Source: Escherichia coli
GTDB lineage: Bacteria; Pseudomonadota; Gammaproteobacteria; Enterobacterales; Enterobacteriaceae
Length of the DNA: 64,000 nucleotides
Strand: one strand, 5' to 3'
Assembly (NCBI RefSeq): GCF_002854065.1
Contig: NZ_CP024147.1
This document shows positions 60,936 through 64,000 of this stretch, piece by piece. Made by a program: the position numbers and the translations under genes. Under the pieces are notes generated by a model. It was given only the letters and a program-made list of their open reading frames with translations. It did no database searches and was not told where the DNA came from. How positions within the stretch are numbered: position 1 is the stretch's first letter; each line of letters opens with the position of its first letter.

Positions 60936-60963
60936 AGCCAGCCTCGTATCAGGGGGCTGGTTT
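60936..60963 (+). terminator. Intrinsic terminator after ybfA
   Basis: Hairpin agccagcc-tcgtatcag-ggggctgg followed by ttt. Confidence 0.5.
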
Positions 60964-61704
60964 ATGTGTTTTACATCAACGTCTTCCATGATAATTAACA
61001 TGGAAGACGTTTACATCGTGTTATTCATTTCATCACTGTTTTAGCATCAAGTTTCGATAGTATCCTTTTAAAGGGCGGCTCAGGATGCGGTCGCCTCCAT
61101 TGTTGCTCTAAGCAACTATGTCGTCAGAAATCTTCAGTTAGGTTGCATACTCCATTACACACTTTCCTGAAACCTCAGGGGAAGGTGAGAAAGCCCCTGT
61201 CACTTTTGCTCATTCCAGCATCTAAATAAATTCCGAATTTTGCTATTAACATCGCTACCGCAAGAAAAGCAGATAGTAAAGAGAGTAATATATACTTTAT
61301 TGATATATTAAGAATAATTAATTGTTAACATATCTAATGCAATAAGATGTGTTGTTGTTAATAAAAAGCTTATAGATTTATAGTTAATAATTAAAACGCA
61401 TCCGATATTTCAGCTTTTTCTATGCAAGATACAATTTTATAAGGTGTCCATTTTTATATGGAGGCGGTAGCGTGTCTGTTACTAGTGGTTTTATTTGCAT
61501 GGTGAATATATTGGGATTGTTAAATGCATAACGATGTATCCGTTCTGGTCGTTGTAAACATTGCTAATTGCTTAATATTATTAGTGATTATGGCTGGAAA
61601 GATAAAATGTGTGATAAACGGTGATGGATATCACCTTCATGACTAAAAAATAAATAAAAACCCATCAATAAATAATTCATTTATTAAAAAGGACTCATAC
61701 CAGT

Positions 61705-62157
61705 ATGACGGAGTATTATCTCAATGAAACTGTTGTAACTTTTCCCGGGAATATTATTCAGGACAGTACGATTAATATGCTGCGCCTCAGCGATCCCGAC
61801 GCTGCACTCATTATCAGTCGGGGCCAGATGCAGGAAGGAGACGAATTAGCCTCCCAGATTGAACAGCAAATGAAAAAACTGGAGAAACAGGTAAAGGATC
61901 TTCACTACACGCCAGTTCAGGTAACACGGGTAGGGATTAATGACGGTGAACAAGGGCTGGAAATACAGAGCCAGTTTCTCCGGGGTAACGAGCAGGTGTA
62001 CCAGTGTCAGGTGGCATTTGTATTGCCGGGTGAGCGGGTCATGATGGCCTTCACCTACGCCAGAACCACACCGCTGACCCCGGCAGATATGACGCGCTGG
62101 GCTGAAATTAAAAAGAATCTGCGCTTCAGGATGCGGCAGGAAGCCAGGACGAATTAA
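61705..62157 (+). CDS. Eag-family (DUF1795) chaperone of a type VI secretion prePAAR effector
   Basis: 150-aa ORF whose N-terminus (YYLNETVVTFPGNIIQDSTINMLRLSDPDAALIISRGQ) has the DUF1795 pattern; ends 18 bp before an Rhs ORF that begins with a prePAAR motif. Confidence 0.75.
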   Translation: MTEYYLNETVVTFPGNIIQDSTINMLRLSDPDAALIISRGQMQEGDELASQIEQQMKKLEKQVKDLHYTPVQVTRVGINDGEQGLEIQSQFLRGNEQVYQCQVAFVLPGERVMMAFTYARTTPLTPADMTRWAEIKKNLRFRMRQEARTN

Positions 62158-62175: not shown

Positions 62176-64000
62176 ATGGAAGAGGCATTCTGGGCGGCAA
62201 GACAGGGTGATGCCCTGCTGCATACGTCGTTTATGGCAGATGTGCTGGGGGCGGTGCTGGAGGTGGCCGCAAATGTCGTTATTGATGCTCTCATTGTCGG
62301 CACAACCTCGTTACTGGCGGCGTCAGTGGGGTTCACGATGGGGTGCACGGCCGTCGTGCTGACCGGTTTTGTGGCGGGTGTGGCGATGGTGTACACCGGC
62401 GTGACAGAAAAGGTCAGCGAAGCCTGTTCAGCCCTCGCAGATATGCTTTTCCCGCCTCAGATTGAAGGTTACATCCTCACCGGCTCTGGTGACACATGGA
62501 TCAACAGCAAACCTGCCGCGCGGGCAGCGGCGACTGCGGCATCGCGGCAGGACATTGAGGCGCAGGAGGCGCAGTCGAAGGCGGAACAGGAAGAAGCGCA
62601 GCGTCAGGAGGATGCCAGAACGTTCCGGGATGTGGCCGGGGAATATCTGGAAATGGCGGGGGCCATAGCCCTGGCGGTTAACCCGGTGACAGGGCCTGTG
62701 CTGATGTCCCGGGCGCTGCACGACCAGCTCAGTACGGAAGAAGGGCGTTCTGAAATGGTGGATGGCGTGACACATTTTGTGTCGGAACTATGGCAGCCCA
62801 CTGTGGCCAGTGCGGCCCCGGGCTCCACCCCGACCCCTGACGATAAAATCGACTGCCATAAACATCCTTCCTCACTGACGCAGTTTCTCGCACAAAAAAA
62901 AGCTGCCTTTCTGGATGACCCCCTGGGAACGGCCCTTAACCTGCTGAGTCCGGACGGTATGCTGGAAACCGCCTTTCAGGGAGTGAATGCGGTTATTGGC
63001 AGCATCAGTAATCTGTTCAAAGGCGATGACGAGCCGCCCGCAGCGGAATATATCGCGGAAGGCGCGCGGGATGTGCGTATCAACAGCCAGCCGGCGGCAC
63101 GCAGCGGGGCACGCTGTACCTGCGAGGCCAGGGTGGTGAATGAGCCGGGGAACGGGGCGTTTGTGTCACCGGATGTGCGCATTGGCGGTCCGTTACTGGT
63201 GGTCAGGGATATCAGAAGCGGCAGGTCGCAGATAACCCTGGTGGCAACTGTGGCGCTGATGTTTCTTCGCCCGGGCAAAATGCTTTCTAAAATCGCCTGT
63301 TTTGCTGCCAGTGTCGGGATGAGCATGCTGGCGCAGAAGGCCACCAGAGCCCTTCCGCATCCGGTCAATGCCGCCACCGGGGCCAAATACCTTGCCGATG
63401 ACGATGACTTCGATTTCAGTCTGCCGGGCCACTTTCCGCTGGACTGGCAGCGCGTGTACAGCAGTCGTGACGAACGCACGGAAGGAATGTTTGGTCAGGG
63501 CTGGAGTGTGATGTATGAAGTCAGCCTGGTGCGCACACCGGGTAACGCGGACGAAAACTGCATGACCTTTGTGTCGGGCATGGGGCGACGCCTGGATATG
63601 GAAGCCGTGCTGCCGGGGAGCGGGTTTTACAGCCCCGGCGAAGGACTGGCAGTCCGGCGTGGTGAGCAGGGGCACTGGCTTATCAGCAGCGATGATGGAC
63701 AGTTTTTTCTGTTTGAAGCCGACCCGCACAACCCGCAGCGCCAGCGGCTGAAAATGCTGGGCGACCGTAACAGCAACTGTCTGAATCTGTACTACGACGA
63801 CCGGGGACGTATCACTGAAATCAGCGGCGAACAGCAGCGTCCGTGCATCCGTCTGTATTACGAACTGGCGGCGCATCCCCGGCGGATGACACAGATTTAT
63901 CAGCATTTCCCTGAGACTGCACCTTTACTGCTGCGTCGTTACAGCTATGACGAGGCCGGCCACCTGAACGGCGTGTACGACAGCACGGGGCACCTGCTGC
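62176..64000 (+). CDS. Rhs-family polymorphic toxin, N-terminal 608 codons (prePAAR, TMD, PAAR, start of YD repeats); continues past the window end
   Basis: Own translation from ATG 62176: MEEAFWAARQGDALLHTSF (prePAAR AARxxDxxxH), hydrophobic helices aa 21-75, PAAR motifs (TWINSKPAAR; VRINSQPAARSGARCTC), second hydrophobic segment aa 352-388, then YD-repeat sequence (NLYYDDRGRITEISG; YSYDEAGHLNGVYDSTGHLL). No stop before base 64000. Confidence 0.85.
   Translation, partial: MEEAFWAARQGDALLHTSFMADVLGAVLEVAANVVIDALIVGTTSLLAASVGFTMGCTAVVLTGFVAGVAMVYTGVTEKVSEACSALADMLFPPQIEGYILTGSGDTWINSKPAARAAATAASRQDIEAQEAQSKAEQEEAQRQEDARTFRDVAGEYLEMAGAIALAVNPVTGPVLMSRALHDQLSTEEGRSEMVDGVTHFVSELWQPTVASAAPGSTPTPDDKIDCHKHPSSLTQFLAQKKAAFLDDPLGTALNLLSPDGMLETAFQGVNAVIGSISNLFKGDDEPPAAEYIAEGARDVRINSQPAARSGARCTCEARVVNEPGNGAFVSPDVRIGGPLLVVRDIRSGRSQITLVATVALMFLRPGKMLSKIACFAASVGMSMLAQKATRALPHPVNAATGAKYLADDDDFDFSLPGHFPLDWQRVYSSRDERTEGMFGQGWSVMYEVSLVRTPGNADENCMTFVSGMGRRLDMEAVLPGSGFYSPGEGLAVRRGEQGHWLISSDDGQFFLFEADPHNPQRQRLKMLGDRNSNCLNLYYDDRGRITEISGEQQRPCIRLYYELAAHPRRMTQIYQHFPETAPLLLRRYSYDEAGHLNGVYDSTGHLL

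What the first reader, a model, noticed from the sequence alone, without database searches (positions are those of the whole stretch)
62176..63340. Rhs N-terminus has two hydrophobic regions flanking the PAAR domain
Besides the N-terminal helices (aa 21-75) there is a second hydrophobic stretch (ITLVATVALMFLRPGKMLSKIACFAASVGMSMLAQ, aa 352-388) just after the CTCEARVV PAAR core. PAAR motifs also occur twice (KPAAR near aa 112, QPAARSG near aa 306). As far as I recall, two TMD regions mark the larger, Rhs-type class of prePAAR effectors.
Basis: partly seen in the sequence, partly recalled or inferred. Interest (0 to 1): 0.5.

Follow-up and report, generated by a model that had tools for sequence, protein, structure and literature searches.

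The report
Post-PAAR hydrophobic linker of Rhs toxin
The second greasy stretch in this E. coli Rhs toxin is real and conserved, but it is most likely the already described connector that threads from the spike-binding PAAR domain into the toxin cage, not a second membrane-spanning domain.

Summary
The ORF starting at 62176 is the N-terminus of a 1544-aa Rhs toxin with a prePAAR motif, a hydrophobic region at aa 18-77, a split PAAR domain, and a second hydrophobic stretch at aa 353-387. An EagR-type chaperone gene lies just upstream.

Ahmad 2020 defines class I (Rhs, large) by one TMD region and class II (small, no Rhs) by two.

The second stretch is bipartite: 12 hydrophobic residues, then RPGK, then 19 mixed residues containing K372. 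It never reaches the classical hydropathy threshold (19-residue Kyte-Doolittle maximum 1.35, against 2.21 for the N-terminal region and 2.25 for a class II TMD2).

It aligns residue by residue with P. protegens RhsA 254-304. That segment holds the seal peptide and anchor helix that enter the Rhs cocoon, and it ends at the N-terminal autocleavage site (here H395/P396).

The layout is conserved in 72 relatives and 34 diverse representatives. Jurenas 2021 calls the region postPAAR and reports it as a second EagR-binding site, so a chaperone or membrane role is not excluded.

Verdict: an ordinary new member of a known family. Interest is low.

The parts
61705..62157 (+). eagR-like chaperone gene (150 aa, DcrB/DUF1795 family). 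Its stop codon ends 18 nt before the rhs start codon.
   Evidence: Pfam PF08786 E=3.6e-19. Weak match to SciW, PDB 6XRR/6XRB, E about 7e-4. Homologues lie directly upstream of the rhs gene in at least 40 of 73 related loci.
62176..64000 (+). First 608 codons of a class I prePAAR Rhs effector gene. The ORF continues past the window end and is 1544 aa in the identical E. coli CUWW06 copy.
   Evidence: Pfam PAAR_motif, DUF6531, RHS_repeat and RHS. AF2 model of aa 345-1544 matches RhsA 7Q97 with TM 0.92.
62194..62223 (+). prePAAR motif AARQGDALLH (aa 7-16)
   Evidence: Read directly from the sequence. A7, A8, R9, D12 and H16 are invariant in 75 aligned sequences. The motif definition AARxxDxxxH is from PMC7773334.
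62227..62406 (+). N-terminal TMD region (aa 18-77), the expected EagR-bound segment
   Evidence: 19-residue Kyte-Doolittle maximum 2.21. The threshold of 1.6 is reached in 70 of 72 relatives. AF2 predicts helices 19-51 and 58-74.
62449..63210 (+). Discontinuous PAAR domain. PAAR strands lie at aa 92-122 (KPAAR 112-116), 207-232 and 287-345 (QPAAR 305-309, CTCEARVV 314-321). They are interrupted by helical insertions at aa 124-206 and aa 234-281.
   Evidence: Pfam PF05488 at aa 291-321, E=4e-9. AF2 strands have pLDDT around 90 and the insertions are helical. The only Foldseek hits are PAAR proteins 4JIW/4JIV and they are weak. The second insertion occurs only in Escherichia/Salmonella relatives.
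63232..63267 (+). H1: 12-residue hydrophobic segment ITLVATVALMFL (aa 353-364), flanked by basic residues R350 and R365/K368
   Evidence: 11-residue Kyte-Doolittle value 2.49. Charged residues are essentially absent in 72 relatives. It aligns with RhsA 254-265, which is unmodelled in 7Q97. AF2 predicts a helix with pLDDT below 60.
63268..63294 (+). Seal-peptide equivalent RPGKMLSKI (aa 365-373)
   Evidence: Aligns with RhsA K268-GKFLSNL-275, the seal peptide. K368 is charged in 84% of relatives and position 369 is hydrophobic in 87%. This is the only part of aa 345-393 not below pLDDT 50 in the cocoon-context model, where aa 369-371 form a strand.
63295..63354 (+). H2: ACFAASVGMSMLAQKATRAL (aa 374-393). 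It contains the near-invariant C375 and the anchor-helix equivalent, which is about 7 residues shorter than in Pseudomonas.
   Evidence: Aligns with RhsA 276-302, which includes anchor helix 289-302. C375 is conserved in 61 of 62 relatives. AF2 predicts a helix at aa 385-391 with low confidence.
63358..63594 (+). Predicted N-terminal autocleavage motif H395-P396-VNAATGAK, followed by the cork/plug domain (DUF6531, aa 395-473)
   Evidence: P396, G402 and K404 are invariant. RhsA is cleaved at P305 and P. laumondii Rhs1 at P289 in the PVYVASGE motif. Pfam PF20148 E=7.5e-19. pLDDT rises to 80-90 from aa 394.

Best explanation
The gene encodes a class I (Rhs-type) prePAAR T6SS effector, and its cognate EagR chaperone gene lies immediately upstream.

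The first hydrophobic region (aa 18-77) is the true TMD region, which the chaperone shields. The second stretch (aa 353-393) is the conserved 'postPAAR' connector between the PAAR cone and the Rhs cocoon. It has three parts:
- a short hydrophobic linker (H1, aa 353-364);
- a basic seal-like peptide (aa 365-373) that passes through the cork;
- a small-residue/hydrophobic segment ending in a short amphipathic helix (aa 374-393) that lies against the inner wall of the cocoon.

The connector ends at the N-terminal autocleavage site at or next to P396. After self-cleavage this segment would keep the N-terminal fragment (prePAAR-TMD-PAAR) attached to the cage. Pulling it out during delivery would unplug the cage and release the toxin.

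Shown here: the sequence features, their family-wide conservation, and residue-level alignment to RhsA.
Inferred from homologues: the location inside the cocoon, the autocleavage, and the unplugging role.
For: - **Class I features.** The prePAAR motif, TM-like aa 18-77, PAAR, DUF6531, RHS repeats and the adjacent DcrB-family gene are all present.
- **Closest solved relative.** P. protegens RhsA (7Q97) matches with E=4.8e-85. Query aa 287-606 align with chain 131-454, where chain number + 60 gives the residue number. This places query 353-364 on RhsA 254-265, query 365-373 on the seal peptide 268-275, query 374-393 on 276-302 (anchor helix 289-302), and P396 on the cleavage-site P305.
- **Solubility of the homologue.** RhsA lacking only aa 1-73 keeps this stretch yet is soluble and stable without EagR1, and it does not bind EagR1.
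- **Hydropathy.** The 19-residue Kyte-Doolittle maximum after PAAR is 1.35. It is 2.21 for the N-terminal TMD, 1.38 for RhsA at the same place, and 2.25 for the class II Tas1 TMD2. Charged residues (R365, K368, K372) break the post-PAAR stretch into two short segments, the first only 12 residues. The longest stretch in this region free of D/E/K/R/H/N/Q/P has a family median of 13 residues, against 42 in the TMD.
- **Conservation.** The layout H1 / basic linker / x-S-K-x-x-C / H2 / P-V-x-x-x-T-G-x-K is conserved in 72 relatives and in 34 diverse representatives. The threshold of 1.6 is reached after PAAR in only 7 of 72 and 8 of 34.
- **Structure model.** The AF2 model of aa 345-1544 is an RhsA-like cocoon (TM 0.92 to 7Q97). 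The seal-like peptide is its only moderately confident element upstream of the cork.
Against: - AF2 gives pLDDT below 50-60 for aa 345-366 and 374-393, both in isolation and with the cocoon. The model therefore does not show where H1 or H2 sit. I could not read coordinates to check contacts.
- The anchor-helix region is about 7 residues shorter here than in Pseudomonas. An anchor helix has been seen only in RhsA among solved Rhs cores.
- H1 (RhsA 254-265) was not modelled in 7Q97, so no structure assigns it a place.
- In P. laumondii Rhs1 the isolated postPAAR region co-precipitates with EagR and cross-links to its concave face. The region may therefore be chaperone-bound at some stage.
- No dedicated TM predictor (TMHMM, DeepTMHMM, Phobius) was available.
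Confidence: 0.68

Rival explanations
1. The post-PAAR stretch is a functional second TMD region or second Eag-binding site, a shortened version of the class II TMD2. A second EagR dimer would shield it in the producer cell, and it would insert into the target inner membrane together with the N-terminal TMD to help translocate the toxin.
For: - It sits where TMD2 sits in class II effectors. A profile-profile alignment carries the PAAR C-terminal half through to Tas1's 'LEEWL', the start of its TMD2, and matches it to the class I junction motif E-x-P-x-W-L.
- Jurenas 2021 reports EagR binding to postPAAR of P. laumondii Rhs1 by pull-down and cross-linking, and draws both hydrophobic regions inserting into the membrane.
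- AF2 predicts helices at 353-363 and 366-391.
- Some Rhs-type relatives do have a long TM-like run after PAAR. P0158 has about 46 uncharged residues, and the 1.6 threshold is reached in 8 of 34 representatives.
Against: - Here the 19-residue Kyte-Doolittle maximum is 1.35. H1 is only 12 residues and is flanked by basic residues, and H2 contains K372 and many Ser/Gly/Ala.
- RhsA 74-1486 is soluble without EagR1 and does not bind it.
- RhsA 268-302 is seen inside the cocoon.
- The class II motif GxxxxGxxLxGxxxD is absent.
- The profile of this family does not align with P. laumondii postPAAR or with Tas1 TMD2 beyond its first residues.
Confidence: 0.2
2. The stretch is simply the buried C-terminal strands of the PAAR fold.
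For: PAAR domains have hydrophobic cores, and the stretch directly follows the last PAAR strand. The first half of H1 shows an alternating hydrophobic pattern in Pseudomonas relatives (G-I-G-L-A-I).
Against: - The Pfam PAAR match ends at aa 321, and the confident AF2 PAAR strands end at aa 342.
- The family-invariant end of PAAR is V343-R344-x-I346-R-S-G349.
- Stand-alone PAAR proteins (4JIW/4JIV, 93 aa) align only with the region before it.
- Aa 353-391 are predicted helical, and pLDDT drops from about 90 to below 60.
Confidence: 0.04
3. The stretch is a chance hydrophobic patch with no specific role.
For: An 11-residue window this hydrophobic arises in 11% of shuffles of the protein's own composition.
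Against: The 35-aa mean is reached in only 0.9% of shuffles. The layout, the flanking basic residues, C375 and the cleavage motif are conserved across Escherichia, Salmonella, Pseudomonas, Snodgrassella, Paraburkholderia, Mangrovibacter and others.
Confidence: 0.02

Closest known systems
Pseudomonas protegens RhsA (PFL_6096; PDB 7Q97; Gunther et al. 2022, PMC8765631) with EagR1
   Same: - The order of parts is the same: prePAAR, TMD, split PAAR, hydrophobic linker, seal peptide, Cys, anchor region, then P-V-x-A-A-T-G-A-K cleavage motif, cork (DUF6531), Rhs cocoon and DPxGL toxin cleavage.
- The core is 44% identical and the fold matches with TM 0.92.
- Post-PAAR hydropathy is almost the same (1.38 against 1.35).
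- An eagR gene lies directly upstream in both.
   Different: - Here the PAAR domain carries larger helical insertions. Aa 234-281 are specific to Escherichia/Salmonella.
- The anchor region is about 7 residues shorter.
- No vgrG gene is adjacent; the locus sits between ybfA and symE/ybgA.
- The toxin domain is different and unannotated.
Photorhabdus laumondii Rhs1 'postPAAR' region (PDB 7PQ5; Jurenas et al. 2021, PMC8636562)
   Same: The concept is the same: a conserved helix-containing region between PAAR and the N-terminal autocleavage site (PVxxxxGE/K) in a prePAAR-TMD-PAAR Rhs with an EagR chaperone. Jurenas 2021 reports it as a second EagR-binding site.
   Different: - There is no detectable sequence similarity in the postPAAR itself. 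The family profile aligns only with prePAAR-PAAR and with the shell.
- P. laumondii has a catalytic Asp before the Pro (D288-P289). This family has N or H there.
- No anchor helix was seen in 7PQ5.
Class II prePAAR effectors (Tse6, Tas1, Tne2; Ahmad et al. 2020, PMC7773334)
   Same: They share prePAAR, a first TMD region, PAAR, an Eag chaperone, and a hydrophobic region that starts at the same point after the last PAAR strand.
   Different: - Class II proteins are about 450 aa and have no Rhs cage.
- Their TMD2 is a long uninterrupted run (Tas1 19-residue Kyte-Doolittle maximum 2.25, 35 or more uncharged residues).
- They carry a GxxxxGxxLxGxxxD motif, which is absent here.
- They have no cleavage motif or cork.
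Salmonella Typhimurium Rhs1-SciW (PDB 6XRR)
   Same: A class I prePAAR Rhs with an upstream DUF1795 chaperone. It is the structural model for how the chaperone holds the N-terminal TMD.
   Different: It is only distantly related. SciW matches the window's EagR at E about 7e-4, and Rhs1(1-59) matches the family profile at E=0.025. A different Salmonella Rhs (P0017, 63% identical) is the closer relative.

Membership tests
Class I prePAAR effector (Ahmad et al. 2020) | N-terminal prePAAR motif AARxxDxxxH | tested here: met
   AARQGDALLH at aa 7-16. It is invariant in 75 aligned sequences.
Class I prePAAR effector (Ahmad et al. 2020) | TMD region between prePAAR and PAAR | tested here: met
   19-residue Kyte-Doolittle values of 1.6 or more across aa 18-77, maximum 2.21. 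AF2 predicts helices 19-51 and 58-74. TMHMM and Phobius were not available.
Class I prePAAR effector (Ahmad et al. 2020) | PAAR domain | tested here: met
   PF05488 E=4e-9, score 37 against a cut-off of 27. AF2 PAAR strands have pLDDT around 90.
Class I prePAAR effector (Ahmad et al. 2020) | [quoted passage not shown] | tested here: met
   1544 aa in the identical full-length copy. PF05593 E=2e-82, PF03527 E=8e-14, DPIGL at 1411 and DPLGL at 1433. Only aa 1-608 lie inside the window.
Class I prePAAR effector (Ahmad et al. 2020) | Only one TMD region (none after PAAR) | tested here: inconclusive
   By hydropathy there is none. The post-PAAR 19-residue Kyte-Doolittle maximum is 1.35, below 1.6, and the hydrophobic segments are short and interrupted by R365, K368 and K372. 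The predictors that define the class (TMHMM, Phobius, TMbase) could not be run.
Class I prePAAR effector (Ahmad et al. 2020) | Cognate Eag (DUF1795) chaperone gene nearby | tested here: met
   A 150-aa DcrB-family ORF whose stop codon ends 18 nt before the rhs start codon (PF08786 E=3.6e-19). Homologues lie upstream in at least 40 of 73 related loci.
Class I prePAAR effector (Ahmad et al. 2020) | T6SS- and VgrG-dependent export | not testable with these tools
   No vgrG or T6SS genes were identified next to the locus, which is kdp-ybfA-eagR-rhs. Testing this needs genetics.
Class II prePAAR effector | About 450 aa, no Rhs cage | tested here: not met
   1544 aa with an Rhs cocoon.
Class II prePAAR effector | Second TMD region after PAAR, plus the GxxxxGxxLxGxxxD motif | tested here: not met
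   19-residue Kyte-Doolittle maximum 1.35 against 2.25 for Tas1 TMD2. The motif is absent.
RhsA-type N-terminal plug (Gunther et al. 2022) | Cork domain preceded by the cleavage motif P-V-x-x-x-T-G-x-K | tested here: met
   DUF6531 at aa 395-473, E=7.5e-19. P396, G402 and K404 are invariant.
RhsA-type N-terminal plug (Gunther et al. 2022) | Seal peptide and anchor helix upstream of the cleavage site, inside the cocoon | tested here: inconclusive
   The sequence aligns with RhsA 268-302. AF2 gives a strand at aa 369-371 with moderate confidence, but low confidence for the helix at aa 385-391. The anchor region is about 7 residues shorter.
RhsA-type N-terminal plug (Gunther et al. 2022) | Actual N-terminal autoproteolysis | not testable with these tools
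   Needs protein chemistry.
postPAAR EagR-binding region (Jurenas et al. 2021) | Conserved alpha-helix between PAAR and the N-terminal cleavage site | tested here: met
   AF2 predicts helices at 353-363 and 366-391, with low pLDDT of 54-60. The layout is conserved.
postPAAR EagR-binding region (Jurenas et al. 2021) | Binding of EagR to this region | not testable with these tools
   No complex prediction was available. Published data conflict between P. laumondii (binds) and P. protegens (does not bind).

The most novel reading that the evidence does not exclude
The bipartite post-PAAR hydrophobic module (H1, basic linker, conserved Cys, H2) is a degenerate homologue of the class II TMD2 and is present in essentially all Rhs-type prePAAR effectors.

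It would have two states. In the producer cell it is tucked into or against the cocoon, or held by a second EagR. After firing it is pulled out and joins the N-terminal TMD in the target membrane. Under this reading class I and class II differ in degree rather than kind, and unplugging the Rhs cage is mechanically coupled to membrane insertion.
Probability: 0.15. Interest if true: 0.5.

Novelty: new member of a known kind. Interest (0 to 1): 0.2.

Why it matters
The finding mainly corrects an annotation-level idea. Rhs-type prePAAR effectors are defined by one TMD region, and a hydrophobic stretch after PAAR should not be read as a second TMD without checking.

How Rhs toxins leave their cage and cross the target inner membrane is still open. 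Published data also disagree on whether the postPAAR region binds the Eag chaperone. The family-wide layout documented here gives concrete residues to mutate: the 12-residue H1, the basic linker, the near-invariant Cys, and the shortened anchor.

For E. coli specifically, this eagR-rhs pair at the ybfA locus is present in about 4% of complete genomes (218 of 5426) and is uncharacterised.

Tried and rejected
- **AF2 placement.** I hoped the AF2 models of aa 1-420 and aa 345-1544 would place the stretch. Both give low confidence there (pLDDT below 60), so they neither confirm nor refute the in-cocoon location.
- **Foldseek on the N-terminal model.** It returned only weak PAAR hits.
- **Homology to class II TMD2.** phmmer gave a marginal alignment into Tas1 TMD2. 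The family profile and hhalign stop at the start of the hydrophobic run. Homology beyond position is therefore unproven.
- **Retrieving class II proteins.** A word-index search with the Tas1 fragment returned only fragments. One Tas1-like locus (L082) was frameshifted and could only be pieced together by eye.
- **First homologue search.** It returned mostly truncated close relatives. The genome scan and the exhaustive profile search were needed to get diversity.
- **NCBIfam.** It added nothing.
- **Promoter/terminator scan upstream of eagR.** Matches did not exceed chance.
- **Two PAAR domains.** Rejected, because the motifs belong to one discontinuous fold.
- **Continuous 35-aa TM segment.** Rejected because of the RPGK break and K372.
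Full report
**What is there.**
Window 62176-63999 (+) translates without stops into the N-terminal 608 residues of an Rhs protein. The ORF runs off the window. A 100% identical stretch in E. coli CUWW06 gives the complete 1544-aa protein, annotated 'RHS repeat-associated core domain-containing protein'.

The locus order is kdpFABC, ybfA, an AT-rich gap, a 150-aa DcrB/DUF1795 gene (61705-62157), then rhs. In the full record this is followed by a 97-aa ORF, symE and ybgA. Similar DNA is found in 218 of 5426 complete E. coli genomes.

Pfam finds PAAR_motif (aa 291-321), DUF6531 (aa 395-473), RHS repeats and the RHS core. The upstream gene is DcrB family and weakly resembles the Eag chaperone SciW.

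**Checking the observation.**
All quoted strings are present, and the hydrophobic stretch is aa 353-387, one residue off. AARQGDALLH (aa 7-16) is a perfect prePAAR motif.

With a 19-residue Kyte-Doolittle window and the classical 1.6 threshold, only aa 18-77 qualify (maximum 2.21). The post-PAAR stretch peaks at 1.35. It is bipartite:
- ITLVATVALMFL (12 aa; 11-residue mean 2.49);
- then R-P-G-K;
- then MLSKIACFAASVGMSMLAQ, which contains K372 and many small or polar residues.

In composition shuffles, the 35-aa mean is reached in 0.9% of trials and the 11-aa peak in 11%. Conservation rather than hydropathy makes the feature real.

**Family evidence.**
A genome scan returned 80 loci from Escherichia, Paraburkholderia, Snodgrassella, Pseudomonas, Pantoea, Mangrovibacter, Andreprevotia, Burkholderia and others. 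I aligned 72 N-termini and found one common layout:
- the end of PAAR (V-V-R-E/D-I-R-S-G-K);
- an 11-12 residue segment with essentially no charged residues;
- a Gly/basic linker;
- a F/M-x-S-K-x-x-C motif, with the Cys in 61 of 62 sequences;
- a small-residue/hydrophobic segment;
- the invariant P-V-x-x-x-T-G-x-K.

One subclade keeps H1 but replaces H2 with a basic, Pro-rich linker.

The 19-residue Kyte-Doolittle threshold of 1.6 is reached in the N-terminal region of 70 of 72 sequences, but after PAAR in only 7 of 72. The median stretch free of D/E/K/R/H/N/Q/P is 42 residues in the TMD against 13 after PAAR.

An exhaustive profile search of 1.8 billion representatives gave 34 diverse prePAAR Rhs proteins with a recognisable cleavage motif. 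The same layout recurs, and the threshold of 1.6 is reached after PAAR in 8 of 34.

A few Rhs-type members do carry a long class-II-like run after PAAR. P0158, for example, has about 46 uncharged residues. This fits Ahmad's wording that large effectors 'almost exclusively' have one region.

An EagR homologue sits directly upstream in at least 40 of 73 loci.

**What the stretch corresponds to.**
The closest solved structure is P. protegens RhsA (7Q97; E=4.8e-85). F271 and P305 fix the offset between chain and residue numbers at 60. The alignment then maps as follows:

| Query | RhsA | RhsA element |
|---|---|---|
| aa 353-364 | 254-265 | unmodelled linker |
| aa 365-373 | 268-275 | seal peptide |
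| aa 374-393 | 276-302 | includes anchor helix 289-302 |
| P396 | P305 | N-terminal autocleavage site |

Gunther et al. describe the seal peptide as filling a gap in the cork as the chain enters the cocoon. [quoted passage not shown]

RhsA residues 74-1486 retain this stretch. That fragment is soluble and stable without EagR1 and does not bind it.

P. laumondii Rhs1 has the analogous cleavage motif (D288-P289-VYVASGE). In this family the residue before the Pro is N or H rather than D.

**Structure models.**
The AF2 model of aa 1-420 (pLDDT 74.6) builds a confident PAAR from four separate pieces: aa 13-16 from prePAAR, aa 95-114, aa 209-227 and aa 291-342. Two helical insertions (aa 124-206 and 234-281) interrupt them. 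Helices at aa 353-363 and 366-391 are predicted at pLDDT 54-60.

The 'two PAAR motifs' plus the prePAAR AAR are therefore elements of a single PAAR fold, as Ahmad et al. proposed (summarises this).

The AF2 model of aa 345-1544 (pLDDT 79.9) is an RhsA-like cocoon, with Foldseek TM 0.92 to 7Q97 and 44% identity. Upstream of the cork only aa 367-373, the seal equivalent, escape the below-50 zone, with a strand at aa 369-371. H1 and the anchor equivalent are unplaced. The models are consistent with the connector reading but do not prove it.

**The class rule.**
Ahmad et al. 2020 state that class I effectors are Rhs proteins of about 1200 aa with a single TMD region. Class II effectors are about 450 aa with TMD regions before and after PAAR, plus a GxxxxGxxLxGxxxD motif. 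A 2026 paper repeats this. The class II motif is absent here.

**What keeps the rival alive.**
Jurenas et al. 2021 name the region 'postPAAR'. They report that it co-precipitates with EagR, cross-links to EagR's concave face, and forms a second EagR site.

The region starts at the same point as class II TMD2. hhalign carries the alignment from the PAAR C-terminal half to Tas1's 'LEEWL', matching a junction motif E-x-P-x-W-L found in 11 of 34 diverse class I proteins, and then stops.

I could not run a dedicated TM predictor or a complex prediction. A chaperone-binding or membrane role for H1 therefore remains possible (about 0.2).

**Verdict.**
The 'two TMD regions mark the Rhs class' claim is wrong.

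The second stretch is best explained as the known postPAAR / seal / anchor connector that ends at the N-terminal autocleavage site. This is a new, uncharacterised member of a known family, with minor clade-specific differences: larger PAAR insertions and a shorter anchor region.

Noticed in passing
window 63298-63300 (C375 of the Rhs): A near-invariant cysteine sits between the seal-like peptide and the anchor region. It is present in 61 of 62 family members and in at least 90% of 22 diverse representatives, usually as (P/A/G)-C after basic residues. It corresponds to C277 of RhsA. None of the papers I read assigns it a function.
   Followed up: partly
window 62545-62793 and 62875-63018 (aa 124-206 and 234-281): The PAAR domain is interrupted by two predicted helical insertions. 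The second is found only in the Escherichia/Salmonella relatives. The first contains a third mildly hydrophobic stretch at aa 158-177, MAGAIALAVNPVTGPVLM.
   Followed up: partly
P0158 (1439-aa representative), aa ~178-225; also P0110, P0119, P0139: Some Rhs-type prePAAR effectors carry a long, Gly-rich, uncharged run after PAAR that resembles a class II TMD2. The one-TMD rule for class I therefore has real exceptions.
   Followed up: partly
alignment A5; Tas1-like locus L082:2560-3960: A junction motif E-(I/V/M)-P-x-W-L lies between PAAR and H1 in 11 of 34 diverse class I proteins. hhalign places the class II Tas1 'LEEWL', the start of its TMD2, on this motif. This hints at common ancestry of H1 and TMD2. 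The L082 gene is broken by frameshifts, probably long-read assembly errors.
   Followed up: partly
window 60950-61750: An AT-rich gap of about 800 bp (34-35% GC) lies between ybfA and eagR. The eagR-rhs genes are about 60% GC and kdp is about 53%, which looks like an island boundary. Promoter-like matches there do not exceed chance.
   Followed up: no
L001:13009-13701 (beyond the window end): The C-terminal 111 aa after DPLGL (the toxin) and the overlapping 97-aa downstream ORF (putative immunity) have no Pfam match. A symE toxin gene follows on the opposite strand.
   Followed up: no
loci L036, L037, L044, L059, L063-L068, L080: A Pseudomonas subclade with prePAAR 'AQxVHAAREGDAILHP' keeps H1 but replaces the Cys/H2/anchor part with a basic, Pro-rich linker (RPRPKxxPK). 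H2 is therefore dispensable in some lineages.
   Followed up: no
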